Shown one piece after another: positions 1 through 45,774 of a stretch of DNA of 45,774 nucleotides. How positions within the stretch are numbered: position 1 is the first letter of the stretch; every line of letters starts with the position of its first letter. The notes beneath the pieces are model-generated. The model was not told the origin of the DNA. It searched no databases and saw only the letters and a program-made list of their open reading frames with translations. The position numbers and the translations under genes are program-made. Source of the DNA: a phage; the sequence record PZ349761.1; one strand, 5' to 3'.

Positions 1-480
1 CCATACAAGTTGATTTTGATTCTGGCTGGGATCGTTTTGCGCATACGCGTTATAAAAGTTATGCCGTGTGGATGAAATCACCCTCCGCAGGAATCGCGTA
101 CGTCTATAACGCAGAATTACGCAATGGTTACATAATAATATCTATATATATCAACCATTTAGTAATATTATTATTATTATTATTATATACGTGTATATAG
201 TGTAGATAGTGGATATTGGATATTGCGATAGTTTTCTATGATTTTTTCCTACACTTGTAGGAATGGTATTACATTGTAGGAATAAATAGGCATATATGGC
301 CCAATTCACCATGAAAGCTGGTGTACAAGCTGTACACGATTTTACATTGAGCTATATCTGGGGTTTGGAGCTGAAAAGCGTAAATAAATTGAATACAACC
401 ATAAATAACACTTGATAACATGTAACCTCAATGATATTATGCACCCATCTTAACGAGAGCAACCAATCAGGAGTATATCT
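1..480. repeat. AT-rich noncoding control region with (TTA)6 microsatellite (167-187), iteron-like short repeats (190-235), CCTACA-ct-TGTAGG palindrome (250-263) and ACGCGT-core palindromes (45-50, 95-100)
   Basis: No credible ORF; about 90 bp (115-200) is a direct repeat of 27207-27295. Confidence 0.6.
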
Positions 481-1002
481 ATGTCAAATCGCATTCAACC
501 AGTAAGCCTTGGTGATGTTATCCGCTACATGGCTAAGCAGGCACTTAAGGCCGACAACAGGACTTTTCATGTTCCAATAAATCTTATAGCTCGCCAGGTT
601 TACGGGCTAACGTCTGATGATATGGGCCGAATCAGCGCTGAAGATCTCGAGGCTGGCGGCAAATACAGTTTGGCAAAGTTGAAGGCTTCATATGTCTCTA
701 ACACAGTTGCCAGGATGTCAGAGATTCAGGAGGCGAACGTTCGGGCTAAGCTGTCAATCAAGGACGGCGACTTCGGTGATGATGTTGACGTTCGATGCGC
801 ATACATCACATTGGTTGATGGGGCAATACAGACAGGAAAGAGAGTTAAGGCCAATAATCAGGTTGCTGAGAATGCGGTGAGCGACTTCAAGGATAGAATC
901 CTTAAGCTAATGCCATCAGTTACTGATCTTGAAGGTGATGAGATTACAGGAGCCATCAAGGCAATCAAGATGTACCAGGAAATGATTAAGGAGGCAAAAT
1001 AA
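481..1002 (+). CDS. hypothetical protein (173 aa)
   Basis: Complete ORF directly after the control region; stop overlaps next start; no recognisable motif. Confidence 0.5.
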   Translation: MSNRIQPVSLGDVIRYMAKQALKADNRTFHVPINLIARQVYGLTSDDMGRISAEDLEAGGKYSLAKLKASYVSNTVARMSEIQEANVRAKLSIKDGDFGDDVDVRCAYITLVDGAIQTGKRVKANNQVAENAVSDFKDRILKLMPSVTDLEGDEITGAIKAIKMYQEMIKEAK

Positions 1003-1532
1003 TGGGGATGTTTGATTTTAACGAAGATAAGCTGACTAATGATGAGATTATGAAGATTTCCATGCGGGATGGACTTCCTCCGCTACGGGTTGCGATCAAT
1101 GCTAATGGATATCGGCAAACTCAACGCCTCTGGGGCAAGCCTGACGCGTCAGAGGTATACATAGATGAAGCGAAGGGCGTTCTGATTAAGCTGATCAGGA
1201 AAATGGCAATGAACGGAAATGGAGTATTGGGGGTGAGGTCTTTATACGAAACCGCACGAAAAGTTAAGCCATTTGAGGGTCGTAATGGAATCATGGTGCG
1301 CATTAAGGACGAGCTCATCCCAGCTCTAGAGGAAATGAATCTAGTTTGCCTCATTGGCGATAAAATTTATGTCCACCCGGCAATCATTGATGAGTATTGG
1401 CAGCCTAACTTCAAAACTTACGAAGGTGAACATGCTAGTAGACTACCATACCACTTGCGGTACAGCGAGGAAGAGGTTGAGGTGGCAATTGAGTTCTATA
1501 GGAAAGCTAAATCACTACTGAATGGTAAATAG
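1002..1532 (+). CDS. truncated paralogue of the 527-aa P-loop protein (N- and C-terminal segments only, ATPase core missing)
   Basis: N-terminus MFDFNEDKL..LPPLRVAINANGYRQ and C-terminal block G..RSLYE.ARKVKPFE..IKD..CLIGDK.Y..P match 42117-43700 (-) but the central ~370 aa with the Walker A motif are absent. Confidence 0.6.
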   Translation: MGMFDFNEDKLTNDEIMKISMRDGLPPLRVAINANGYRQTQRLWGKPDASEVYIDEAKGVLIKLIRKMAMNGNGVLGVRSLYETARKVKPFEGRNGIMVRIKDELIPALEEMNLVCLIGDKIYVHPAIIDEYWQPNFKTYEGEHASRLPYHLRYSEEEVEVAIEFYRKAKSLLNGK

Positions 1533-5950: not shown

Positions 5951-6028
5951 GCTCCGCTAGCTCAATTGGACAGAAGCAACGACCTTCTAAGTCGCAGGTT
6001 ACTGGTTCGAATCCAGTGCGGAGCGCCA
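5951..6028 (+). tRNA. tRNA-Arg (anticodon UCU), CCA encoded
   Basis: Cloverleaf read by eye: 7-bp acceptor GCTCCGC/GCGGAGC, T8, anticodon loop CTTCTAA with TCT at 5986-5988, T-arm ACTGG-TTCGAAT-CCAGT, discriminator G, CCA 6026-6028. Confidence 0.8.
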
Positions 6029-6548: not shown

Positions 6549-7055
6549 ATGAGCAAAGCGGCATTAAAGATGGGTGAGGGAAATTTCAAGGCGCTCTACA
6601 ACAAGAAGTATGGCGATATTGCTATGGTGGCAATTAACCGCAAGTACACGCCTGAGGAAGTTTTTGATTTCGCTGTTCGATACTTCTCATGGGCAGAGAG
6701 TGAGGCAATCAAAGCTACTGAGACAGCAGCATTCCAGGGCGTGGTTAGCGAAAGTCTGGTGCACAAGCCTCGAGTGTTCACATTAACTGGCCTGGCGCTC
6801 TTCATGGGTGTTAACATCAATAGATTCGCTAAATGGCGCACTGAGGCTGGGTACTCTGATGTGATGGAATTCATTGATAACGTAATCTACGAGCAGAAGT
6901 ATCAGCTTGGCGTTGCAGGTATTATCAACTCCACAATCGTTGGTAAAGAGCTAGGCATTGATAAGCCGCAGGAGATTAAGATTAGCAACAACTCCACAGC
7001 TAACGACGTTGATAGCATGAAGGAAGCTCTGGAATCTGTGATTAGTAAGCTATAA
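6549..7055 (+). CDS. putative terminase small subunit
   Basis: 168-aa gene immediately upstream of large terminase, first gene of late block after terminator and extended -10 TGgTATAAT; assignment by position and size only. Confidence 0.5.
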   Translation: MSKAALKMGEGNFKALYNKKYGDIAMVAINRKYTPEEVFDFAVRYFSWAESEAIKATETAAFQGVVSESLVHKPRVFTLTGLALFMGVNINRFAKWRTEAGYSDVMEFIDNVIYEQKYQLGVAGIINSTIVGKELGIDKPQEIKISNNSTANDVDSMKEALESVISKL

Positions 7056-7164: not shown

Positions 7165-8730
7165 ATGTCTTTAGTGTGGGAAGAAATGACCATTCAGGAA
7201 AAGATGGCTGTCAAAGCGATATCAGAGCATAGCTTCGAGGGTTTTCTGCGCTGCTGGTTCCAAATAACACAAGGTGAGCGATACATCCCTAACTGGCATC
7301 ACAAGTACTTGTGCAGAATCATTGACGAGATTATCGCAGGGGAACGCAAGGACACCATCATTAACATAGCTCCGGGCAGCGGAAAGACGGAAATCACATC
7401 AATTCACTTCCCTGTATACTCTATGTTGAAGCTGAAGAAGGTTCGAAACCTTAATATCTCTTTCGCCGACTCAAACGTAAAGCGCAACTCAAAACGAGTG
7501 CGTGACTTAATATCATCAAAGGAGTTCCAGGAACTCTGGCCTTGCAAGTTCGGGACAAATAAGGATGACGAGATTCAGATCGTTGACGACAGCGGAAAGG
7601 TTAGATTCGAGTCCATATCAGCATCAAAAGGAGGCAGGATTACTGGCACGCGTGGTGGTTATATCACCGACACATACAGCGGCGCGGTAATGCTGGATGA
7701 CTTCGATAAACCAGACGAGATGTTTTCATCCGTATACAGGGCAAAGAGTCACACGCTGCTTGGCAATACCATTCGCTCACGCCGCGCTAGCTCGGTAAAA
7801 GGGAAGGCAACTCCAATTATCCAGATTCAGCAGCGACTTCACGTCAATGACTCAACGTGGTTCATGCTTAGCGGTGGTATGGGCATTGATTTTGATTTGG
7901 TGAAGATACCAGCACTGGTTACTGAAGATTACGTTGATACATTACCTGACTGGATTAAACAGCAATTCATTGATGACGTATTATCAAGCGAAAATATCGA
8001 GCGTGACGGAGTGAAGTATTACAGCTACTTCCCAGGGAAAGAGTCCGTGCATGACCTGGTTGCGATGTGGGATAGTGACCCGTACACATTCCTTAGCCAG
8101 TATCAACAAGAACCTGTAGCATTGGGCGGAAATCTTATTAACGTAGACTGGTTCCAGCGTCTTAGTGATACATTCAGGCCTCCAGTTAAGTATGATTACA
8201 GATTCATCACATGCGATACCGCGATGACTACAAAGAGTTATAGTGACTTCTCTGTACTTCAGTTGTGGGGATACAAGGATGCTAAGATTTACCTGATAGA
8301 CCAGCTCAGAGGAAAATGGGAAGCGCCGGAGTTGGAGGCTGAACTACTGGACTTCGAGAAGAAATCAAGGGCAACCAGTCAATCAGATGGCATACTCCGA
8401 AAGATCATCATCGAGAAGAAAGCCTCTGGTATCGGCCTGATTCAATCGGCAGGTAGAGTTATGCGAACACCGATAGAGCCATACGTTCCGGATAACGACA
8501 AGCTGACTCGCGTAATGAGCGCATTGCCACAGATTAAGGCTGGTAATGTCGTTCTTCCAGAGTCTGCGCCGTGGCTAAACGGATTGCTTACTGAGGTTGC
8601 TGCTTTTACGGCAGATGATAGCCACAAACACGACGACCAGATTGACTGTCTAACAATGGCAGTAAACCTTGTACTTAACATTGCGGACGACCCAAAAGCG
8701 CGACTAATGCGCATAGCGGGAATTAAATAG
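7165..8730 (+). CDS. terminase large subunit
   Basis: 521 aa; P-loop-like APGSGKTE near N-terminus, acidic nuclease-type C-terminal half; canonical position before portal. Confidence 0.85.
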   Translation: MSLVWEEMTIQEKMAVKAISEHSFEGFLRCWFQITQGERYIPNWHHKYLCRIIDEIIAGERKDTIINIAPGSGKTEITSIHFPVYSMLKLKKVRNLNISFADSNVKRNSKRVRDLISSKEFQELWPCKFGTNKDDEIQIVDDSGKVRFESISASKGGRITGTRGGYITDTYSGAVMLDDFDKPDEMFSSVYRAKSHTLLGNTIRSRRASSVKGKATPIIQIQQRLHVNDSTWFMLSGGMGIDFDLVKIPALVTEDYVDTLPDWIKQQFIDDVLSSENIERDGVKYYSYFPGKESVHDLVAMWDSDPYTFLSQYQQEPVALGGNLINVDWFQRLSDTFRPPVKYDYRFITCDTAMTTKSYSDFSVLQLWGYKDAKIYLIDQLRGKWEAPELEAELLDFEKKSRATSQSDGILRKIIIEKKASGIGLIQSAGRVMRTPIEPYVPDNDKLTRVMSALPQIKAGNVVLPESAPWLNGLLTEVAAFTADDSHKHDDQIDCLTMAVNLVLNIADDPKARLMRIAGIK

Positions 8731-30152: not shown

Positions 30153-30581
30153 ATGCACGTAATTACTGGTCAGATTCGCCGCGCTCCATTCACTAAAGAA
30201 GGTCAAAACGCAAATGGTAACTGGAAAATGTTTGCAGTTGATTTGAGCGAGCGATACAAGGATAAAGATGGGCAATCACAGTACACAAACTATCGAGCAG
30301 TCTTCTTCGCTAAAGAGTCAATGCTAGATTGGTACAATGAGGCATTTCAAGAAGGTAAAGTTGTTAGCGTTAGCGCAGAGACTCTTTCTGTTGATGTTAG
30401 GGATAAAGATGGCAAGACTTACGTTACTGTCAACATGAACAATCCTAGACTTGAGTTTAGTCAGCGCGGTGAAGGTGGCGTGCAGCAGCAGAATCAACAG
30501 AAGCCACAACAACAGCAACAACAACAGCAACAGCAACAACCGAAGCAACAACAGAACTTTGAGGATGACATCCCGTTCTGA
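30153..30581 (+). CDS. ssb: single-stranded DNA-binding protein
   Basis: OB-fold-sized N-domain, Gln/Pro-rich linker and acidic C-terminal tail ending DDIPF. Confidence 0.85.
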   Translation: MHVITGQIRRAPFTKEGQNANGNWKMFAVDLSERYKDKDGQSQYTNYRAVFFAKESMLDWYNEAFQEGKVVSVSAETLSVDVRDKDGKTYVTVNMNNPRLEFSQRGEGGVQQQNQQKPQQQQQQQQQQQPKQQQNFEDDIPF

Positions 30582-33222: not shown

Positions 33223-33240
33223 ATAGCACGAATTGCTAAA
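33223..33240 (+). promoter_or_regulatory. conserved palindromic box ATAGCACgaattGCTAAA with no plus-strand gene downstream
   Basis: Lies about 24 nt upstream of the minus-strand tail fibre ATG and lacks the downstream -10 and leader. Confidence 0.5.
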
Positions 33241-33264: not shown

Positions 33265-33287
33265 TAAAAAAACCTCCCGAAGGAGGT
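33265..33287 (-). terminator. rho-independent terminator of the minus-strand primase operon
   Basis: Minus strand reads CCTCC-ttcg-GGAGG followed by T7. Confidence 0.65.
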
Positions 33288-34213
33288 TAGTCTAGTAATT
33301 CGCTCGCCTTGTATATTCGCTTTCTTATTCCTGATTTGAAGTGGTTATCATTATTTGGCATTACAACATCAAGATTGCGATCGTCAGCAACGGCGAGTAA
33401 ATCAAAATCGCTGCGAGTACAAGCGATGCGTAACTTGTAGTTTCTAAGCGCGTAAGCAACCATTTCCATGTTGTAACTGGAGTGGCAAACAAGCACACAG
33501 CGGTTCCCAGTAGCAATGTGAACGCGATAGCCATCAATGAAATTATCGACCAGATAAGCGTACTCATCATCCTTAAAGGAACCAATAACAGAAACAGACT
33601 GGCGAGTATAATCTTTTGCAGCATAACTAACATCTCCCTCTTCATTGATAAACATTACGTTGCACATCTCTTCTGATATGCCGTCACTATAAGCCATAAA
33701 GCACGGAACTGCGTGGATTAATTCACCTGATTTCGTCCTGCCAACATCAAAACCGAACTCGCTATAGATACCCTCGTATGTACTGAGAGGAGTTGATTCT
33801 ACTCTTTCCGTCCTTTCCATTATCTCTAAGCATCTTTCGTGATCAATCTGAGCGCCCATTTTGTATGGTGATGTTCTTGAAGCTCTTTTGTTTGCTTTTG
33901 ATATAACCTCTACTGGAACGAGATTCAGCCAATCACCAAGCGTATCTATTGTTTCACTATAACTCATTCCAGAACACTTCATTACCCAACCAACACCAGA
34001 ATCATTTCCACACTGGTTGCATATTGCTGCGCCATTTCCCTTTTCTTGACCTAACTCATCAGTGAAGCGAAACCTATCCTTGCCAAAGCAGTAAGGGCAC
34101 GGACCATGCTTCTTGTTGAGATTCTCCTTTGTCCATCCCAGGTGCGACGAGTAGAAAGCACTCCACATTCCCTTCATTTTTGCTATCACTTCATTTTTAT
34201 CATGGTGACTCAT
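33287..34213 (-). CDS. putative DNA primase (zinc-binding plus Toprim-like)
   Basis: CPYCFGKDRFRF...CNQCG zinc-ribbon-like N-terminus; start set to ATG 34213 with RBS GGAGG; adjacent to helicase. Confidence 0.5.
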   Translation of the reverse strand: MSHHDKNEVIAKMKGMWSAFYSSHLGWTKENLNKKHGPCPYCFGKDRFRFTDELGQEKGNGAAICNQCGNDSGVGWVMKCSGMSYSETIDTLGDWLNLVPVEVISKANKRASRTSPYKMGAQIDHERCLEIMERTERVESTPLSTYEGIYSEFGFDVGRTKSGELIHAVPCFMAYSDGISEEMCNVMFINEEGDVSYAAKDYTRQSVSVIGSFKDDEYAYLVDNFIDGYRVHIATGNRCVLVCHSSYNMEMVAYALRNYKLRIACTRSDFDLLAVADDRNLDVVMPNNDNHFKSGIRKRIYKASELLD

Positions 34214-34268
34214 AGTTACCTCCGCAAACAATAAAGGCACTATACATAATGCACAGTGCCATTGTTTA

Positions 34269-34748
34269 TCAAATCGTGCTGTTTTTCTCTTTCTTCTTCT
34301 GGTTCTCTAATTTAATTTTGCGCCAGGAGCGACATTCAGGCTTTGTGGCTAGTTCAGCCTCAGTAACTACGCGCAGCATGTGACGTTTTTTGCAACGAAG
34401 CGTCAATGGCTTTCCGTTACCGTCGAATTGCAGGTCTGGCCTGCAGAATGTAGCGCGAAAACCTTCTCCATTTCGCTTATAGTAGTTGTGCGAAAGTTGA
34501 GCTCCACGTGCAGAAATCATACCACGCTTAAACCATTCCTCTACAGCCTGTGGCGTTACCTTTAACTGCTTCGCTATATTCGCCTTTGTGCCGAAGAAAT
34601 CAAGAACCATCTCCAGCCGTGCTCGTAAGCCAGCCCTTACTTCATCTTTTAATACGTAGTAGCCTGAAGGTCGTTTACGTTGTTTTTTGTCTTTGGTGCG
34701 GACGGTTCCGTTATTACCGTTAATTGTTCGTTTGTCGACTGAACTCAT
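34269..34748 (-). CDS. putative HTH DNA-binding protein (transcriptional regulator candidate)
   Basis: Basic N-terminus, helix-turn-helix-like IAKQLKVTPQAVEEWFKRG; first gene of minus operon at a divergent control region. Confidence 0.5.
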   Translation of the reverse strand: MSSVDKRTINGNNGTVRTKDKKQRKRPSGYYVLKDEVRAGLRARLEMVLDFFGTKANIAKQLKVTPQAVEEWFKRGMISARGAQLSHNYYKRNGEGFRATFCRPDLQFDGNGKPLTLRCKKRHMLRVVTEAELATKPECRSWRKIKLENQKKKEKNSTI

Positions 34749-34849: not shown

Positions 34850-36844
34850 ATGTTGCCTATCGAGAAGCTGGTTGCCAACTTCGATAAAGAAAGAATCAAA
34901 CAGATTCAGAAAGACTATCAGTTTGGAGAGATAACCCCTTACGAATTCCAGTGCGTGACATTTGATGCAATCGGAAAGGCTATTGGCAAGTACGAGGCAC
35001 CATTTATCGCAGACCTTTCAGTATCTGCGGGTAAGACAATCATCCTGGCTATGATTGGTAAGCGCATGGAGCAGCTTGGGCTTCCTTATATGGTTCTTTC
35101 TCGCCAGTCAGAGATAATTAGCCAGAACTCAGAAGAGCTTCGTAATTTCGGCATCCGTAATAGCGTCTATTGCGCTGGCCTTAACGTCAAATCAGTTTAC
35201 TACCCAACTATAGTGGCCAGTGAGGGTACGGCAGCCAACGGCTTGTTTAAGGGGCTTGGTGACTATGTTCCGGCAGTTATCGCTATAGATGAGTGTCACA
35301 TGGTCGATCACATGGATATCGTGGAGGCTGAAGAGAATGAAGAAACATTTGAGCAAATGAGCACAAAGAAAGGCGATATGGTTTTTAAGGATGGCGTAAA
35401 CACAGGATTGCTTGGTACTGGTCGTGCGCAGTACACGCTAATTATCACCGAGATGAAACGTCGTTGTCGTGAGAAGTACGGGCGTGAGCTTCGTATATTC
35501 GGTCTTACTGGCAGCCCGTATCGTAACAACGATCATATCGTCGTTAGCAACCCAAACATCCGTGGATTCTGGCGCAAAACAGTGATTCAGGTGCCAACAA
35601 ATTATCTGGTTGATTTGGGCTTCGTGGTTCCTACTGTTTATGGTGAAGTTGGTGACCTGGGTTATGACCTTAGTGAGTTTGCGCCAGACGGAAGCGATGG
35701 CGTTAAAGACTTCAGCAAGAAAGAAATGGATGCAATGGCTGCAAAGATTCACGACAACCAATCAATGACCCAAAAGATAATGGGTTTTGTTGTGAAAATA
35801 CTCGAGACTCGTAACGCTGCATTGGTAACATGCGCTGGCAAACTCCATTGTGATGAGGCTGCTGCGGCACTACCAGATGGATACCCTTACGCCATCATCA
35901 CAGACTCTACGAGAGAGAGGAAGCGCAGGGAGATTCTGGCTGATTGCCAGACAGGTAAGTACAAAATAATATTCCAGATTGGTTGTCTTACTACGGGCGT
36001 AAACCAGCCGCTGTGGGATACTAGCGTCATACTACGCAAGATTGGCAGCCTAACGCTTATGATTCAGCTTCTTGGTAGGGGGATGCGCAAACTTAAGAGA
36101 TCTCATATTGATGCTGGTTTTCATAAAGAAGATCACCTTGTGCTGGATTTTGCTGGCGCACTTGATGATATGGCTGAGCTTTACTTTGACCCAATTATTG
36201 AAGAGATTCAGGCTGAGAAGTTTAAATCCTCAAGAAAAGGTGGCGATGAGGTTCGTCAGTGTCCGCAATGTGGATATGAAAATTCCCCATTCGCTCGTCG
36301 ATGTAGCAATAAGATTGATGGCGTTAGATGCGATTACTTTTTCCAGTTCACAACATGTGAGGATATCACGGACCCTCAGACGAAAGCTATTATTAAAAAG
36401 GGTTGTGGCGCTCGCAATGACATAGCAGCAAAGGTTTGCAGGGAATGCGGCGAGATGCTTAAAGACCCAAATGCTAACCTGACTGGCAAAATGTATCGTC
36501 GTGGTGATTACCTTCGTGTTTATGATTTTCAAGTTGGGTTAAGTAAGAATCAGACAGGAATTGTAGTTAAGTACAATATAATGGCTCATAACGGAGAGAG
36601 ATTTAACGCTTGGGAGTTCTTTAATCCAGAATCAGACCATCGAGTTTGCAGTGTGCTCTGGAAGAACTTTTGCTTAGCTCATATTGAGAATCGCACGGAA
36701 GCGGCACGAATTGGCAGGCTTAAAAATGCCAGAATGATTATGACTAACGTAGATAAGTTCCGTGCGCCAGTTCAGGTTACGCATCGCCGGAATGCAAAAG
36801 GAAAGGACGTGATAGCGTTTAAGAATTTTGGAGAATTATTATGA
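34850..36844 (+). CDS. SF2 DNA helicase with C-terminal zinc ribbon
   Basis: Walker A SAGKT, DECH box (AIDECHM), Cys pairs CPQCGY..C..C near C-terminus. Confidence 0.8.
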   Translation: MLPIEKLVANFDKERIKQIQKDYQFGEITPYEFQCVTFDAIGKAIGKYEAPFIADLSVSAGKTIILAMIGKRMEQLGLPYMVLSRQSEIISQNSEELRNFGIRNSVYCAGLNVKSVYYPTIVASEGTAANGLFKGLGDYVPAVIAIDECHMVDHMDIVEAEENEETFEQMSTKKGDMVFKDGVNTGLLGTGRAQYTLIITEMKRRCREKYGRELRIFGLTGSPYRNNDHIVVSNPNIRGFWRKTVIQVPTNYLVDLGFVVPTVYGEVGDLGYDLSEFAPDGSDGVKDFSKKEMDAMAAKIHDNQSMTQKIMGFVVKILETRNAALVTCAGKLHCDEAAAALPDGYPYAIITDSTRERKRREILADCQTGKYKIIFQIGCLTTGVNQPLWDTSVILRKIGSLTLMIQLLGRGMRKLKRSHIDAGFHKEDHLVLDFAGALDDMAELYFDPIIEEIQAEKFKSSRKGGDEVRQCPQCGYENSPFARRCSNKIDGVRCDYFFQFTTCEDITDPQTKAIIKKGCGARNDIAAKVCRECGEMLKDPNANLTGKMYRRGDYLRVYDFQVGLSKNQTGIVVKYNIMAHNGERFNAWEFFNPESDHRVCSVLWKNFCLAHIENRTEAARIGRLKNARMIMTNVDKFRAPVQVTHRRNAKGKDVIAFKNFGELL

Positions 36845-37260
36845 AGATTACAGATAAAGAAGATTACATTGAGTTTTACCCTGGTCCGGTTAAGTCATGC
36901 CCTAAAGAGGATGACGAACAAATCTTTTGCTCTGATTGGGTTAAGTATAACTACCCAGATATGGTATTTTTCCATTGCGTGAATGAGGGAAAGAAAACCA
37001 TTGGTCAAGCAAGAAAAGACCAGGCTAAGGGGCTTCTAAAAGGCGTATCAGACTGTATGTTTCTTATTCCTGAATCACTTCGAGGTAAGTATCCTTTCGG
37101 AGCTATAGAGCTAAAGAGGGCTGGCAAAACTCAAGCAAGTCCAGTCAGCGAAGAACAGAAGGCATTCCTGAAAAGTGTAATGGAATCAGGCGGTTTCTCG
37201 GCAGTCGCCTACGGACGCGAGGGTTTTCTGGCAGCATTTAAAGAAATGATTTCAAAATAG
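36841..37260 (+). CDS. VRR-NUC-type nuclease domain protein
   Basis: D..E.K pattern (SDCMF..GAIELKRAGK); ATGA overlap with helicase. Confidence 0.55.
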   Translation: MKITDKEDYIEFYPGPVKSCPKEDDEQIFCSDWVKYNYPDMVFFHCVNEGKKTIGQARKDQAKGLLKGVSDCMFLIPESLRGKYPFGAIELKRAGKTQASPVSEEQKAFLKSVMESGGFSAVAYGREGFLAAFKEMISK

Positions 37261-41309: not shown

Positions 41310-41674
41310 TAGTGTGCGTAGCTTTATCTGGATGTTCGGCAACTGATGCACTGACTGGATTGATTGGAAGCAAGCCGGAAGTTACAGCTCAGGTCGGGGC
41401 TGAGAACAACAAGGTTGGCGTTGGGTTAACGAATAAGGTCGATTCCAGCAGCTCCAGTGAAGCCACGGTTAAAGATTCTAAAGTTGGGTCACTTGATAGC
41501 TCAAGCGGGAAAAAGACTGCTGACAACTCTATTAAGGCATCTACAATCACTGCCGAAAAGATTGAGATTACCAACAACGACTCATCCGCGCCTCCATGGA
41601 TTGTAATGGGAGCTATGGGGTTGCTGTTTTTTGTTCCACTTACCGCAATCTTAAGACGCAAAAAAGCCTCCTAA
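41285..41674 (+). CDS. unimolecular spanin (N-terminal lipoprotein signal plus C-terminal TMD)
   Basis: Lipobox LSGC after signal peptide; C-terminal WIVMGAMGLLFFVPLTAIL then RRKKAS; last gene of lysis cassette. Confidence 0.65.
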   Translation: MFKWIAALVVCVALSGCSATDALTGLIGSKPEVTAQVGAENNKVGVGLTNKVDSSSSSEATVKDSKVGSLDSSSGKKTADNSIKASTITAEKIEITNNDSSAPPWIVMGAMGLLFFVPLTAILRRKKAS

Positions 41675-41690
41675 TGGAGGCTATATTTTT
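41661..41690. terminator. bidirectional terminator between lysis cassette and minus-strand genes
   Basis: GCCTCC-taat-GGAGGC hairpin flanked by A-run and T-run. Confidence 0.65.
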
Positions 41691-42024
41691 AGCTAAATAA
41701 CTCGTCGTCAGTCATTGTTCCTATATTCATCATCTCTTTTATGTACTTGCTTTGATACCCGTTAAGCGCCTCGAAGTTAAACTCAAATGGCCTCTTCAAG
41801 CTACCATTGCTAGCAAACTCACCGCACTTACCATCAATGTATCCCATGCTAAGCATCTTCGCGCAGAACTCCTTTGAAGCCGCGCTGCAAAACTCCCTAT
41901 GCGATAATCCTGCCGCCTTACTGAATCTCTGAGAGTCCTTATGCTGGTAGATGAATCGCGCCAAATGCTGTCGCGTGAAAAAGCTGTAAGATTCGCAGAA
42001 CCGGTACAAGTCAAGGATGAACAT
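41689..42024 (-). CDS. hypothetical protein (111 aa)
   Basis: ORF from track with ATG start. Confidence 0.45.
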   Translation of the reverse strand: MFILDLYRFCESYSFFTRQHLARFIYQHKDSQRFSKAAGLSHREFCSAASKEFCAKMLSMGYIDGKCGEFASNGSLKRPFEFNFEALNGYQSKYIKEMMNIGTMTDDELFS

Positions 42025-42116
42025 AATTAACTCCTGAGCACTGCCAAAACAAATAGAAGCATCGAAATTGTTACAACAAAACCAAGTATTATCAGTAGTA
42101 TCGATTCAATCATAAA

Positions 42117-43700
42117 TCACCCCAGCAATCTCGGATTAATGTAAACTTTATCACCAATCAGGCACGTATAGTTTTTCTCATCAAGCATTGGCAGTAAGTG
42201 ATCTTTAATCTTCGTCATCACTCCAGCCTGAGCCTCGAACGGCTTAACCTTTCGCGCCGCTTCATACAGTGAACGAATACCAACTACGCCTTTACCGTTC
42301 TTACCTTGCTTGATTAGTATATCAATCAACTTGTTCATCTCGGCATTGTCTCCAGCGTGACCGGCGGCGTTAGCGGATGACAGGTAAGTCTTGCTAAGTT
42401 CCTGGAAGATAATGACGGCTTCTTGCATCGTATCTAACTCAATTTCTCTCGACTTCTGCGGACTACCACCGTTAGGGTTGAACCAGTTACGCACAGTGTG
42501 AAGTACCGCTGCAATCCTTATTGCCTGTTTATCAAACTTACCCAAAGCGCCGCGCAACATTGTGTGTGAATACTTTCCTCCGTCAGCAAGGTGAGGCTCC
42601 ATCTCCTGGCGTGCTCGGTTGAGATATTTCATTGCAGAGTTACTCACTGTCAGCTTAACATCTTGCTCATTCATTATTTCGTGAACCAAGCGGAAGTAGT
42701 CAGCCTTCAGGCCACCATCAATTGGCTCGTATGTTGAATCTCCATTCTCATCAACAAAAACACGCTCACCCAGGAATGACTTCTCGCGTACAAGCAGAAA
42801 ACGTTCCGACACGCCGATTCCACGAGCGCCCGCGTTCATGATCGCATTTATTGTTTCATCCTGCGCAATTACCGAGATGCAACCCATAGCAACGAAGCTC
42901 ATGTTGTTCTCTGCGTTTGCACGCGCGATAGATACGTTACCCGCATCCCATGCCTTCAGTACAAGCTCGCTGTTCGTTTTCTTTGAGCCATCACCATAGG
43001 TCATGCCCAGAAGTGAGTTCACGCTCGTTGCCTCGTCAGAGATAACAGCGAAGTTTCCCTGGCGATTGTTGATTCTGGCTAGACCTTCAGGTGTTGTATC
43101 GGACACGGGGAATACTATGTCACAAAGTTTCTCTAGCTTTTCCTCAAGTTCCTCTTTCTCCTCAAAAAGTGAGGCCATCTCTGATGGTGACTTTTCCTGC
43201 TTCATCTCCTTGGATAATGCAGATAGTTTAGCCATTATTTTCTTGCGCTCGCGCTTTCGCACTTCATTAAGCCGCTCAGTCTCAGCGATCATTGGAGCAA
43301 TAGAAAGTGAGTTGATTGCTGATTTACCAGTCGATGGCGGCTGGCTTGTTACGACGTACAGCGAGGTTGGTTGCTGAGTCCCGTGATATTCAACAGTAAA
43401 TCGTCCAAGCATGGCGGCAGAAATACACCCCAGAAAGTGCATGTATGCGGATGACTCTGGAAACTGGACCGAACGAGCAATATTGGCTGAAAGTTTGCCA
43501 ACAACATCAATATCATTACCGAGTGAGATTACTGGATACTTGTCATTTGCCGCATCAATCTCGACAGGAGCTTTCCAGAATGATTGAGACTGACGATAGC
43601 CATTAGCATTAATAGCCACTCGCAGGGGTGGGAGGTTGTCTGCGGCAGCAATTGCCATAACCTGTTCAACAGATAGTTTATCTTCGTTGAAATCAAACAT
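42117..43700 (-). CDS. P-loop NTPase of unknown function (full-length paralogue of 1002-1532)
   Basis: Walker A-like PPSTGKS; N- and C-terminal segments shared with the 176-aa protein at 1002-1532. Confidence 0.6.
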   Translation of the reverse strand: MFDFNEDKLSVEQVMAIAAADNLPPLRVAINANGYRQSQSFWKAPVEIDAANDKYPVISLGNDIDVVGKLSANIARSVQFPESSAYMHFLGCISAAMLGRFTVEYHGTQQPTSLYVVTSQPPSTGKSAINSLSIAPMIAETERLNEVRKRERKKIMAKLSALSKEMKQEKSPSEMASLFEEKEELEEKLEKLCDIVFPVSDTTPEGLARINNRQGNFAVISDEATSVNSLLGMTYGDGSKKTNSELVLKAWDAGNVSIARANAENNMSFVAMGCISVIAQDETINAIMNAGARGIGVSERFLLVREKSFLGERVFVDENGDSTYEPIDGGLKADYFRLVHEIMNEQDVKLTVSNSAMKYLNRARQEMEPHLADGGKYSHTMLRGALGKFDKQAIRIAAVLHTVRNWFNPNGGSPQKSREIELDTMQEAVIIFQELSKTYLSSANAAGHAGDNAEMNKLIDILIKQGKNGKGVVGIRSLYEAARKVKPFEAQAGVMTKIKDHLLPMLDEKNYTCLIGDKVYINPRLLG

Positions 43701-43756
43701 TACTTCTCTCCGTGTTGTTTCTGAGCGGCCATTATAACAACGACCGCTTATAAAGC

Positions 43757-43774
43757 ATTATCAATTTGTGCTAT
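43757..43774 (-). promoter_or_regulatory. conserved box variant (minus strand reads ATAGCACaaattGATAAT)
   Basis: Follows TAA stop of upstream micro-ORF; about 20-nt spacer then TATAAT (plus 43731-43736); ATG of P-loop gene at 43700. Confidence 0.5.
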
Positions 43775-43890
43775 TAATTGTTCTTAATCCACTTTAAACA
43801 CATCCACAATGCAGCCCCATAGAATGCAATCTTAAGAACTTCAGCTAAGACAAGGATAATAAAGTATCCACCACCAAGTAAATCAATCAT
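43774..43890 (-). CDS. hydrophobic micro-protein (38 aa, single predicted TMD)
   Basis: Short ORF with ATGA overlap to upstream gene; read by eye. Confidence 0.3.
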   Translation of the reverse strand: MIDLLGGGYFIILVLAEVLKIAFYGAALWMCLKWIKNN

Positions 43891-44126
43891 TTTTTAATCT
43901 CCATTTCCACAATTTCATAACTTATGTAATTATTTATCATTCCAATAAGTGATTTTGGGTATGTCTTCATATGCTTCTTGGCGGAATCTTCATCAAGATG
44001 TGCTGATATGTTGTGAAAATTGTATTCATAATCCATGCCAATTAGTATGTATATCTTATCGTGAGCATTAATGAAGTTATTTGATTTTATTTCCCCAAGC
44101 GACCAGTCCTTTCCTTTTCTAATCAT
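43887..44126 (-). CDS. hypothetical small protein (79 aa)
   Basis: ORF from track. Confidence 0.45.
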   Translation of the reverse strand: MIRKGKDWSLGEIKSNNFINAHDKIYILIGMDYEYNFHNISAHLDEDSAKKHMKTYPKSLIGMINNYISYEIVEMEIKK

Positions 44127-44476
44127 TTGTATTGAGCCTCAAAGCGATAGTCGCCGCAAACTGTAACAAAGCCAACATCTTCGTCGCGATATAGCTGCCA
44201 TGCGCTGCCATCTTTATCGTAAATGTACCCAGCGCGCTTACCAAGTCCAGCATGGAGATCTACTTGATATCTCTTCCCTTCAGTGAAGTATTTACGAATG
44301 GATGAGCGATGATTAACCTTTGTGCAGTAAATGGTCTTGGTCTTGATATATTTGCCGCGCTCTTCCAGATTAATCCATTTACCATATTTCTTGATTTGCT
44401 CTACGCTATCTTTTACTCTGGCTTTGTATAATACGTTTTCGTTGCTGATCCAGTTTTTGGTAATCGTAGTGGTCAT
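44123..44476 (-). CDS. hypothetical protein (117 aa)
   Basis: ORF preceded on minus strand by cassette (leader CTCATAGAAACGAAAC). Confidence 0.5.
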   Translation of the reverse strand: MTTTITKNWISNENVLYKARVKDSVEQIKKYGKWINLEERGKYIKTKTIYCTKVNHRSSIRKYFTEGKRYQVDLHAGLGKRAGYIYDKDGSAWQLYRDEDVGFVTVCGDYRFEAQYK

Positions 44477-45554: not shown

Positions 45555-45607
45555 ATCTATCTCCTCGTTTTGATGAGTTAACTATATCCTCCATGACCAC
45601 TAATGTC

Positions 45608-45625
45608 TTTAGCAAAAAGTGCTAT
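45608..45625 (-). promoter_or_regulatory. conserved palindromic box (minus strand reads ATAGCACtttttGCTAAA)
   Basis: Minus strand downstream: TATAGT, CATCAAAACGAGGAG, ATG 45554. Confidence 0.55.
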
Positions 45626-45774
45626 TCGTTAGATTTATGTATTGTTGCAGATATTGCAATGATTCTCATGACTATTGCACATATAGCAATATTGCTTCAG
45701 ATGCAATGATGTTTTTGATTGTTGCGAAAAGTGAAATGAAGTTGGGAGTGAGCGAATGAAAGATGGATGGACTA

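What the first reader, a model, noticed from the sequence alone, without database searches (positions are those of the whole stretch)
42117..43700. P-loop NTPase of unknown function expressed from a cassette promoter
The 527-aa protein carries a Walker A-like PPSTGKS motif but no motif I can assign to helicase, terminase or primase families, and is the full-length partner of the mini-paralogue. It is driven by a minus-strand box at 43757-43774 and is directly followed by a 27-aa hydrophobic micro-ORF at about 42027-42113.
Basis: partly seen in the sequence, partly recalled or inferred. Interest (0 to 1): 0.5.

Follow-up and report, generated by a model that had tools for sequence, protein, structure and literature searches.

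The report
T1-type phage MCM-like helicase gene
This gene encodes the DUF3987-family, MCM-like ring ATPase found in over 900 sequenced, mostly T1-like phage genomes and already labelled "DNA helicase" in many of them, so the finding is real but ordinary.

Summary
There is a 527-aa ORF at 42117-43700 (minus strand) with QPPSTGKS at residues 120-127, and it has a short paralogue at 1002-1532. An 18-nt box lies 74 nt upstream of the ATG, and a 28-codon hydrophobic micro-ORF starts 3 nt after the stop.

DUF3987 was predicted to be a phage replicative helicase in 2016, and one member was shown to be an ATP-dependent 5'-3' helicase in 2025. The genome has a primase and an SSB but no polymerase and no other ring helicase. 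The gene is therefore most likely the fork helicase.

The box is the already described T1-like 21-nt direct repeat. It sits too far upstream to be a -35 element.

Side observations:
- The fast-evolving, ATPase-less mini-paralogue.
- A covarying hairpin that holds the -10 hexamer.

The parts
42117..43700 (-). CDS of the 527-aa DUF3987 / MCM-like AAA+ helicase (orthologue of T1 gp09 and Rtp gp67)
43560..43700 (-). N-terminal small three-helix domain (aa 1-47), the first of the two segments shared with the mini-paralogue
   Evidence: Model helices 11-21, 25-33 and 36-41. 62% identity to the mini-paralogue. W42 invariant.
43320..43343 (-). Walker A-like P-loop QPPSTGKS (aa 120-127)
   Evidence: Translation checked. 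K126 invariant even in the set at 23-40% identity.
43128..43319 (-). About 64-residue helical hairpin (coiled-coil-like) that continues the P-loop helix (aa 128-191). Covered by the DUF3987 Pfam match; an insertion of this kind in MCM is not known to me.
   Evidence: Model helices 126-166 and 172-191. Weak coiled-coil matches. The Pfam match runs unbroken across it.
43032..43052 (-). Walker B strand FAVISDE (aa 217-223)
   Evidence: Model strand 217-221. S221 and E223 invariant. D222 is Ala in 4 of 32 homologues.
42891..42938 (-). Beta-hairpin before the sensor-1 strand (aa 255-270) carrying invariant R260. Candidate DNA-contacting pore loop.
   Evidence: Model strands 255-258 and 267-270. R260 invariant. 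Assignment as a pre-sensor-1 hairpin is by position in the AAA+ fold, which is inference.
42798..42809 (-). SERF motif (aa 298-301) with invariant R300 just before strand 301-305. Candidate arginine finger; from memory, compare SRFD of MCM.
   Evidence: The MCM 'SRFD' is visible in the real MCM sequences.
42120..42350 (-). C-terminal helix plus winged-helix domain (aa 451-527), the second segment shared with the mini-paralogue
43757..43774 (-). T1-like direct-repeat box ATAGCACAAATTGATAAT. It starts 74 nt upstream of the ATG and overlaps the stop codon of the preceding 38-aa ORF.
   Evidence: 15 copies against 0.07 expected. Same 74-nt distance in Rtp, SU57 and JulesPiccard, and present upstream of the gene in T145P1. 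70-77 nt in 36 of 80 IMG/VR loci. Described for TLS, T1 and Rtp in PMC11447400.
43724..43748 (-). Hairpin AGCGGTCGTTG-TTA-TAATGGCCGCT that encloses the -10-like hexamer TATAAT (43731-43736, preceded by TGT). The hexamer lies exactly 20 nt after the box.
   Evidence: Hairpins with different stem sequences sit at the same place in all 18 relatives.
42027..42113 (-). 28-codon hydrophobic micro-ORF. It starts 3 nt after the helicase stop, and its last codons carry the AGGAG for the next gene.
   Evidence: Kept as an ORF in JulesPiccard (1 aa different), OzMSK and L021 (27 codons, diverged, still hydrophobic). Absent in Rtp, SU57 and most relatives.
41689..42024 (-). 111-aa gp10-like gene (PHROG 2794, unknown function). 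In most relatives it is the gene directly coupled to the helicase stop codon.
   Evidence: It starts about 0-4 nt from the helicase stop in about 70 of 80 loci. 57% identical to SECphi27 gp10.
41665..41682 (.). Bidirectional intrinsic-terminator hairpin that ends the leftward helicase operon (followed by TTTTTT on the minus strand) and the rightward lysis genes
1002..1532 (+). Mini-paralogue (176 aa, PHROG 7327): helicase N-terminal three-helix domain plus winged helix plus a new 47-aa tail, with no ATPase core. Transcribed divergently, about 3.1 kb from the helicase start across the window junction.
   Evidence: (model pLDDT 80.5). A copy covering at least 80% of it is present in 113 of 781 matching phage records. 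329 clusters match at E<=0.001, and the 120 listed are all 169-182 aa. Same divergent arrangement in 6 loci.

Best explanation
The gene encodes the T1 gp09 / Rtp gp67-type DUF3987 protein. This is an AAA+ ATPase whose core folds like MCM. It is preceded by small helical N-terminal domains and followed by a winged helix.

It most likely assembles into a ring (hexamer). The inferred catalytic residues are K126 and S127 (P-loop), D222 and E223 (Walker B), and R300 supplied by the neighbouring subunit. A beta-hairpin carrying R260 would pull DNA through the central channel, so the protein would act as the phage's own fork helicase. It would work with the phage primase (33287-34240) and SSB (30153-30581) and with a host DNA polymerase, since the phage encodes none.

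The gene is the first in a unit of three tightly spaced genes, probably translationally coupled: helicase, micro-ORF, gp10-like protein. This unit ends at the terminator at 41665-41682. It is preceded by one of the phage's repeated intergenic cassettes, made of the box, 20 nt, a TATAAT hexamer and a conserved leader. The cassette probably provides or boosts transcription.

Shown here: family membership, fold, conserved catalytic residues, gene inventory and cassette anatomy.
Inferred: ring assembly, helicase activity and polarity in this phage, its role at the fork, and promoter activity.
For: Family:
- Pfam DUF3987, 143.9 bits against a cut-off of 27.
- PHROG 2373 'DNA helicase', E 3e-259 over the full length.
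- Orthology to Rtp gp67 / T1 gp09.

Fold:
- AF2 model with pLDDT 89.7 and pTM 0.87.
- The 50 Foldseek PDB hits shown are all MCM2-7 subunits, best E 4.6e-6.
- The C-terminus matches ORC2, Cdc6 and kleisin winged helices.

Active site:
- K126, S221, E223, R260, Q280, G296, R300, E306 and K388 are invariant across homologues at 23-40% identity.

Literature:
- DUF3987 was linked to MCM by HHsearch at 98% probability and predicted to be a phage replicative helicase with a C-terminal wHTH (PMC4889955).
- The PriCT-DUF3987 protein AgaPH unwinds DNA 5'-3' with ATP or dATP, and Walker A or Walker B mutants are dead (PMC11724360).

Context:
- Every ORF of 300 aa or more in the window is accounted for.
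- The genome has a primase, an SSB, an SF2 helicase next to a VRR-NUC nuclease, RecE-like and Erf recombination genes, and terminase subunits.
- It has no DNA polymerase and no DnaB-type helicase.
- The TLS paper says the same of T1 and TLS.

Distribution:
- The gene is in 925 phage records, 908 of them at full length.
Against: - No experiment exists for any T1-like member.
- No DUF3987 structure is in the PDB; sequence and profile searches gave nothing better than E 0.1.
- My own profile-profile comparison with an MCM core profile was not significant (0.14% and 1.2% probability). The MCM link here therefore rests on a predicted fold plus the published HHsearch result.
- The MCM N-terminal OB/zinc domain is absent.
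- No helix-2 insert is visible in the predicted secondary structure.
- The first Walker A glycine is Gln.
- The primase is 8 kb away, not adjacent as in many DUF3987 systems.
- The phage also has an SF2 helicase (34850-36844), which earlier T1/TLS papers treated as 'the' replication helicase.
- The gene lies in the leftward arm among small genes of unknown function rather than next to the primase and SF2 helicase genes.
Confidence: 0.75

Rival explanations
1. It is a real DNA motor, but an accessory one rather than the fork helicase. It could act in recombination-dependent replication, replication restart or concatemer processing, or strip host proteins from DNA. In this reading the SF2 helicase or host DnaB drives the fork.
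For: - The phage encodes a second helicase (SF2, 664 aa), which the T1/TLS literature names as the replication helicase.
- The DUF3987 gene sits in the leftward arm among small genes of unknown function, 8 kb from the primase.
- T1-like phages rely strongly on recombination genes (RecE-like and Erf).
Against: - The SF2 helicase is followed directly by a VRR-NUC nuclease gene, with overlapping stop and start codons. From general knowledge, that pairing is typical of branch-processing enzymes, not fork helicases.
- The DUF3987 protein's closest structural matches are ring-shaped fork helicases.
- The gene is present at full length in 908 phage records.
- Elsewhere DUF3987 replaces DnaB, MCM or RepA domains in primase fusions (PMC5862659).
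Confidence: 0.15
2. It is an AAA+ initiator, loader or remodeller, like ORC/Cdc6 or DnaC. It would bind a phage origin through its winged helix and recruit a host helicase, without unwinding DNA itself.
For: - The C-terminal winged helix matches those of ORC2 and Cdc6 best.
- The gene lies about 2 kb from the AT-rich non-coding region between the two divergent gene arms, a candidate control or origin region.
Against: - It has a hairpin with an invariant Arg at the position of the pore loop of ring translocases.
- The one DUF3987 protein that has been tested is a helicase.
Confidence: 0.07
3. It is a packaging ATPase or a primase, the other roles the first reader considered.
For: None beyond the P-loop.
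Against: - Separate terminase small and large subunits are at 6549-7055 and 7165-8730.
- A separate Toprim / zinc-ribbon primase is at 33287-34240.
- The fold is AAA+, not terminase or primase.
Confidence: 0.01

Closest known systems
T1 gp09 / Rtp gp67 and the 'DNA helicase' of other Drexlerviridae phages (PHROG 2373)
   Same: - Orthologues with the same length (about 510-530 aa).
- Same place in the genome: between the leftward run of small genes and the gp10-like gene, next to the lysis cassette.
- 99.2% identical to the vB_Ec-G8 protein.
   Different: Nothing of substance. Local differences are the inserted micro-ORF (absent in Rtp) and the presence of the mini-paralogue (absent in Rtp).
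AgaPH, the PriCT-DUF3987 helicase of a pAgo-carrying mobile element (PMC11724360)
   Same: - DUF3987 ATPase domain with Walker A and B motifs.
- A small C-terminal domain.
- Oligomeric.
- It is the only family member with shown ATP-dependent 5'-3' unwinding.
   Different: - AgaPH has an N-terminal PriCT domain and is encoded next to, and binds, an AEP primase-polymerase.
- The phage protein has no detectable PriCT domain.
- Its partner primase is of the DnaG/T7 type and lies 8 kb away.
- I could not compare the two sequences directly.
MCM helicases (archaeal MCM, eukaryotic MCM2-7; superfamily 6)
   Same: - P-loop of the xxPxxxKS kind.
- Arg in an S(E)RF motif before strand 5, like SRFD of MCM.
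- A hairpin before sensor 1.
- A C-terminal winged helix.
   Different: - No N-terminal OB-fold or zinc domain.
- No helix-2 insert seen in the predicted secondary structure.
- A 64-residue helical hairpin after the P-loop helix that I do not know from MCM.
- No Pfam MCM hit, and no significant profile match in my test.
- The one tested DUF3987 member moves 5'-3', whereas from general knowledge MCM moves 3'-5'.
Cch (DUF927) of SCCmec and the SaPI5 primase-helicase, MCM-like helicases of mobile elements
T1-like 21-nt direct repeat aaATAGCACnnnTTGnTAAAA (TLS paper, PMC11447400)
   Same: - The box at 43757-43774 fits the consensus.
- It points in the direction of transcription.
- It lies 74 nt before the start codon, against 'about 76' reported for TLS.
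   Different: - This copy has AAA as the middle triplet and ends TAAT instead of TAAA(A).
- The function of the repeat is unknown in every phage that carries it.

Membership tests
Pfam DUF3987 (PF13148) | Match to the family HMM above the gathering score | tested here: met
   143.9 bits against a cut-off of 27, E 9.8e-42. Residues 81-433 cover profile positions 3-352 of 364.
Pfam DUF3987 (PF13148) | [quoted passage not shown] | tested here: met
   QPPSTGKS, with K126 invariant. FAVISDE, with E223 invariant and D222 replaced by Ala in 4 of 32 homologues.
Pfam DUF3987 (PF13148) | [quoted passage not shown] 2016) | tested here: met
   [not shown]
Pfam DUF3987 (PF13148) | Fusion to, or adjacency with, a primase (frequent in the family, not obligatory) | tested here: not met
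   The only primase is at 33287-34240, about 8 kb away with the lysis genes in between.
Pfam DUF3987 (PF13148) | ATP-dependent DNA unwinding | not testable with these tools
   Shown only for AgaPH (PMC11724360).
MCM / superfamily 6 AAA+ helicases | AAA+ core closest in fold to MCM | tested here: met
   [not shown]
MCM / superfamily 6 AAA+ helicases | Sequence-profile similarity to the MCM family (PF00493) | tested here: not met
   No Pfam MCM hit. hhalign of A1 and A5 against a 3-sequence MCM core profile gave 0.14% and 1.2% probability; only the P-loops aligned. My profiles were shallow. Published HHsearch gave 98% for another DUF3987 protein.
MCM / superfamily 6 AAA+ helicases | N-terminal OB-fold domain with zinc motif | tested here: not met
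   Residues 1-97 of the model are helical. The only strands before the core are the short hairpin 101-111. No Cys/His cluster is present.
MCM / superfamily 6 AAA+ helicases | Arginine finger (SRF motif), pre-sensor-1 hairpin and helix-2 insert | tested here: inconclusive
   SERF with invariant R300 lies before strand 301-305. A hairpin at 255-270 carries invariant R260. Helix 204-214 shows no insert. These were assigned from secondary structure, without a residue-level superposition.
MCM / superfamily 6 AAA+ helicases | Hexameric ring with DNA in the channel | not testable with these tools
   No multimer prediction or experiment was available.
DnaB-type (SF4) or viral SF3 helicases | RecA-type DnaB_C domain, or SF3 core as the best fold match | tested here: not met
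   [not shown]
T1-like direct-repeat cassette | Match to aaATAGCACnnnTTGnTAAAA, in the direction of transcription, about 76 nt before a start codon | tested here: met
   0 mismatches to ATAGCACNNNTTGNTAA. Minus strand, as is the gene. 74 nt before the ATG.
Sigma-70 promoter | -35 and -10 hexamers 16-19 nt apart | tested here: not met
   TATAAT with TGT in front is present, but the TTGATA of the box is 22 nt away. The scan called no promoter here. An extended -10 promoter without a -35 element remains possible.

The most novel reading that the evidence does not exclude
The ATPase-less mini-paralogue (1002-1532) may work on or against the helicase.

It keeps exactly the two end modules of the helicase, the N-terminal three-helix domain and the winged helix. 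It adds a new 47-aa tail and is transcribed divergently across the non-coding region between the two gene arms. It evolves much faster than the matching parts of the helicase.

It could occupy the DNA site or protein partner that those modules bind. That would make it a loader or regulator of helicase assembly, or a decoy for a host defence that senses the helicase.

Separately, the -10-like hexamer in front of the helicase sits in a hairpin that is kept by compensatory changes across genera. The cassette may therefore be controlled through nucleic-acid structure rather than acting as a plain promoter.
Probability: 0.2. Interest if true: 0.55.

Novelty: already known. Interest (0 to 1): 0.2.

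Why it matters
For genome annotation, it settles what this gene is. It is the T1-type DUF3987 helicase, not an orphan NTPase.

More generally, T1-like phages seem to run replication forks in E. coli with an MCM-like AAA+ ring, a T7-type primase and a host polymerase. That combination has never been reconstituted. DUF3987 still has no solved structure and only one biochemical study, so an abundant, easily grown coliphage would be a convenient model. This point was already made in the 2016 survey of viral replication proteins, so it is not new here.

The side observations are the parts that could lead to new biology:
- the ATPase-less, fast-evolving paralogue;
- the hairpin-embedded -10 hexamer in the repeated cassette;
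- the repeated insertion of small membrane-protein genes at one junction.

Tried and rejected
- NCBIfam and PADLOC scans of the protein gave nothing useful. NCBIfam had no hit. PADLOC gave only a coiled-coil match to JetC at E 0.012.
- PDB sequence searches, with the single sequence and with the profile, found no relative. The best hits were coiled-coil noise.
- hhalign against an MCM core profile was not significant. I built that profile from real MCM chains recovered. The local alignment stops at the P-loop, probably because of the 64-residue insertion after it and because my profiles were shallow.
- MAFFT plus RNAalifold on the helicase upstream regions found no consensus pairs, because the stems are out of register in the alignment. 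Folding each sequence separately showed the hairpin in every sequence.
- Terminase and primase roles are rejected because both are encoded elsewhere.
- Pseudogene status for the mini-paralogue is rejected. 329 clusters match it at E<=0.001, the 120 listed are all 169-182 aa, and it has its own PHROG.
- Concerted evolution between the mini-paralogue and its own helicase is rejected. A mini-paralogue is no closer to its own genome's helicase than to others.
- Literature searches found nothing on T1 genes 1 and 2, essentiality screens, Drexlerviridae transcription start sites, or defence-escape mutations in this helicase.
- The Rtp genome paper is not held in the library. The supplement of the 2016 survey is not held either.
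- The exact protein sequences are not in the protein collection. The nearest cluster is 99% identical.
Full report
**What the window is.**
- The region 41600-44200 is 92% identical to Veterinaerplatzvirus T145P1 and about 88% identical to phage Rtp and other members of Drexlerviridae, subfamily Braunvirinae.
- In T145P1 the end of the window (45604-45774) is followed 129 nt later by the start of the window (129-297). The window is therefore one complete, circularly permuted T1-like phage genome. Its two ends are neighbours on the circular map.

**Check of the observation.** All parts are confirmed except one codon count.
- The ORF listing gives 42117..43700 on the minus strand: 527 aa, ATG start. 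A GGAG lies 8-11 nt upstream.
- QPPSTGKS is residues 120-127.
- The short paralogue is the 176-aa ORF at 1002-1532. A tblastn of the 527-aa protein against the window hits it twice. Helicase residues 1-51 match at 62% identity (E 3e-16). Residues 458-526 match at 57% identity (E 5e-22). Nothing matches in between.
- The box ATAGCACAAATTGATAAT is at 43757-43774 on the minus strand. The degenerate pattern ATAGCACNNNTTGNTAA occurs 15 times at up to 1 mismatch, against 0.07 expected.
- The micro-ORF at 42027-42113 exists, has 28 codons rather than 27, and is strongly hydrophobic.

**What the protein is: family.**
- It matches Pfam DUF3987 over residues 81-433 with 143.9 bits (cut-off 27).
- It matches PHROG 2373, labelled "DNA helicase", end to end with E 3e-259.
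- In the Rtp record the corresponding gene is rtp67, "DNA helicase, similar to gp09 of phage T1". In other records it is "putative ATPase", "DUF3987 domain-containing protein", "helicase" or "hypothetical protein".
- A tblastn finds it in 925 phage records, 908 of them at full length. The best is 99.2% identical (vB_Ec-G8, "DNA helicase").
- A profile search of 1.84 billion cluster representatives finds 6136 relatives at E <= 0.001. These include proteins of 750-970 aa in which the domain forms the C-terminal half.

**What the protein is: fold.**
- An AlphaFold2 model built on 32 homologues is confident (pLDDT 89.7, pTM 0.87).
- In Foldseek against the PDB, the 50 hits shown are all MCM2-7 subunits (best E 4.6e-6).
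- Below them come RavA (11.9), BchI (10.5), the SCCmec helicase Cch (9.7), ComM (9.4), BrxL (8.8) and the SaPI5 primase-helicase (8.3).
- The last 75 residues match winged-helix domains of ORC2, Cdc6, kleisins and Stn1.

**Reading the secondary structure as an AAA+ fold (inference).**
- Strand 115-119 leads into the P-loop.
- The P-loop helix is drawn out into a 64-residue helical hairpin (126-166 and 172-191).
- Strand 217-221 carries Walker B (ISDE).
- A beta-hairpin at 255-270 precedes strand 273-279, whose end (Q280) is where sensor 1 sits.
- SERF (298-301) precedes strand 301-305, which is where arginine fingers sit.
- A helical lid follows, then the winged helix.
- Across homologues at only 23-40% identity, the invariant residues are K126, S221, E223, R260, Q280, G296, R300, E306 and K388. 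This fits an active, oligomerising ATPase.

**How far the MCM link goes.**
- No solved structure has detectable sequence similarity, either with the single sequence or with the profile.
- I recovered real MCM core sequences, built a small profile and compared it with two profiles of this family. The results were not significant: 0.14% and 1.2% probability, and only the P-loops aligned, QPPSTGKS with GDPGTAKS.
- The N-terminal OB/zinc domain of MCM is absent. No helix-2 insert is visible.
- The protein is therefore not a member of the MCM family proper. It is a DUF3987 protein with an MCM-like motor.
- This agrees with Kazlauskas et al. 2016. They linked DUF3987 to MCM at 98% HHsearch probability, noted the C-terminal wHTH, and predicted that these proteins are replicative helicases of phages (PMC4889955).
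- It also agrees with Kazlauskas et al. 2018 (PMC5862659).
- In 2025 a PriCT-DUF3987 protein, AgaPH, was shown to be oligomeric and to unwind 5'-tailed and forked DNA with ATP or dATP. Walker A and B mutants were inactive (PMC11724360).

**Why a fork helicase is the most likely role.**
- All ORFs of 300 aa or more in the window are identified:
  - Structural and packaging: terminase large subunit, portal, protease, major head protein, tape measure, central fibre J, a tail fibre.
  - A membrane protein.
  - DNA metabolism: RecE-like exonuclease, a DnaG/T7-type primase with zinc ribbon, an SF2 helicase, a DNA repair exonuclease, and this protein.
- Smaller replication and recombination genes are an SSB, Erf, a methyltransferase and a VRR-NUC nuclease.
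- There is no DNA polymerase and no DnaB-type helicase. The TLS paper states the same for T1 and TLS.
- The SF2 helicase gene overlaps the start of a VRR-NUC nuclease gene. From general knowledge, that suggests branch processing.
- The DUF3987 protein is thus the only candidate ring helicase.
- This is an argument from inventory and fold. No T1-like member has been tested, and I found no genetic data in the library.

**Transcription unit.**
- Downstream, the micro-ORF starts 3 nt after the helicase stop.
- Its last codons hold the AGGAG for the 111-aa gp10-like gene (41689-42024), whose ATG lies 2 nt after the micro-ORF stop.
- That gene is followed by a bidirectional terminator at 41665-41682.
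- In about 70 of 80 IMG/VR relatives, the gp10-like gene (MFLLDLYRFCES...) starts about 0-4 nt from the helicase stop. The conserved pair is therefore helicase plus gp10-like protein, whose function is unknown.
- The micro-ORF is an insertion found in a minority of relatives:
  - JulesPiccard differs by one residue.
  - OzMSK and L021 have diverged 27-codon versions that are still open and hydrophobic.
  - Rtp lacks it.
  - SU57 has a 171-aa gene there instead.
  - L015 and L017 carry an unrelated hydrophobic micro-ORF at the same junction.
- It is likely a real small membrane protein, but an accessory one.

**The box and the "cassette promoter".**
- The box is the 21-nt direct repeat aaATAGCACnnnTTGnTAAAA described for TLS. 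The authors say similar repeats occur in T1 and Rtp. It points in the direction of transcription, lies about 76 nt before start codons, and has unknown function (PMC11447400).
- Here it begins 74 nt before the ATG. The same 74 nt holds in Rtp, SU57 and JulesPiccard. The box is also upstream of the gene in T145P1. It is 70-77 nt away in 36 of 80 IMG/VR loci. OzMSK lacks it.
- In 12 of the 15 copies in the window, a TAnnnT hexamer follows exactly 20 nt after the box, and in two more it is offset by 1 nt. Here it is TATAAT preceded by TGT. A conserved leader of the type CATCGAAACGA follows.
- The unit is thus a real, repeated cassette.
- The TTG(C/A)TA inside the box is 22-23 nt from the hexamer, too far for a -35 element. 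The consensus scan called no promoter here.
- No terminator separates the gene from the upstream genes. Promoter activity is therefore plausible but unproven. I found no transcription start data.

**Hairpin around the hexamer.**
- In front of the helicase gene, the hexamer lies in the loop region of a hairpin (43724-43748).
- All 18 diverse relatives have a hairpin at the same place with different stem sequences, for example GTTGCCC/GGGCAAC, GGTGCGG/CCGCATC, GGTTCCGG/CCGGAACC and GCGTCG/CGGCGC.
- That is covariation, so the structure itself is under selection, in DNA or in read-through RNA.
- About half of the other cassettes in the window show the same arrangement.

**The mini-paralogue.**
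- Its model (pLDDT 80.5) repeats the three N-terminal helices and the helix plus winged helix of the helicase. It adds a less confident 47-residue tail.
- 329 clusters match it at E <= 0.001. The 120 listed are all 169-182 aa, and it has its own PHROG (7327).
- Only 113 of 781 matching phage records hold a copy covering at least 80% of it. Rtp has none. In T145P1 most of that segment is replaced by other sequence.
- Where present, it lies 2.5-4 kb upstream of the helicase and is transcribed divergently.
- Mini-paralogues differ from each other far more than the matching helicase segments do: 62-98% against 83-100% identity in the N-terminal part, and 27-90% against 92-100% in the winged helix. 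They are no closer to their own genome's helicase than to others.
- It is an old, fast-evolving accessory derivative. What it does is open.

**Verdict.**
- The finding is real.
- Its central question, "what is this NTPase?", has a known answer. It is a member of an already annotated and already discussed family, in a well-sampled phage group.
- I rate it already known, with low interest.
- The mini-paralogue and the hairpin-embedded hexamer are the parts worth a separate look.

Noticed in passing
window 1002-1532 (+): The ATPase-less paralogue of the helicase (N-terminal three-helix domain, winged helix and a new 47-aa tail) evolves much faster than the matching helicase segments. It is present in only about 1 in 7 of the phage records that match it. 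It overlaps the stop of a DUF7174 gene (481-1002) by 1 nt.
   Followed up: partly
window 43724-43748 (-), and the same position in L007-L086: The -10-like hexamer in front of the helicase gene sits in a hairpin that is kept by compensatory changes in all 18 diverse relatives examined. About half of the other box cassettes in the window have a hairpin over or next to the hexamer, and two have a terminator-like hairpin between the box and the hexamer.
   Followed up: partly
window: 15 box sites, for example 1826, 3146, 4029, 8727, 29389, 37257, 44556, 45625: The repeated cassette has three conserved parts: the box, a TAnnnT hexamer exactly 20 nt later, and a leader of the type CATCGAAACGA. In at least seven of the ten sites inspected the box begins at or right after the stop codon of the preceding gene (TAA-ATAGCAC). 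A Cro-like regulator gene (34269-34748) is a candidate binder but was not tested.
   Followed up: partly
window 33223-33240 (+): This is an orphan box copy. It lies on the plus strand between two minus-strand genes (tail fibre and primase). It has no hexamer at +20 and is followed by a terminator-like hairpin.
   Followed up: no
window 41689-42024 (-): The gp10-like protein (PHROG 2794, no Pfam or PDB match) is the gene directly coupled to the helicase stop in about 70 of 80 relatives. It is a conserved partner of unknown function.
   Followed up: partly
window 42027-42113 (-) and 43774-43890 (-): The helicase gene is flanked by two small hydrophobic ORFs of 28 and 38 aa. The junction between the helicase and the gp10-like gene has received unrelated hydrophobic micro-ORFs in different lineages, and a 171-aa gene in SU57.
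   Followed up: partly
window 45626-45774 joined to 1-480: A non-coding region of about 630 nt lies between the two divergent gene arms. It is AT-rich with (ATT)n runs and several inverted repeats. It also has a TTGTAGGAAT direct repeat and a run of ATTGCA-like motifs at 45640-45710. It is a candidate control or origin region.
   Followed up: no
window 44123-44476 (-): The 117-aa protein (T1 gp07 type, PHROG 2684) is 40% identical to SECphi27 gp13, which is 128 aa long. A 128-aa SECphi27 protein of unknown function was reported as the trigger of Mokosh type I. Whether it is the same gene was not established.
   Followed up: no
window 34850-36844 (+) and 36841-37260 (+): The SF2 helicase with zinc ribbons overlaps the start of a VRR-NUC nuclease gene. 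It looks like a branch-processing pair rather than a fork helicase.
   Followed up: no
window 5951-6028 (+): A single tRNA-Arg (anticodon TCT), as reported for other T1-like phages.
   Followed up: no
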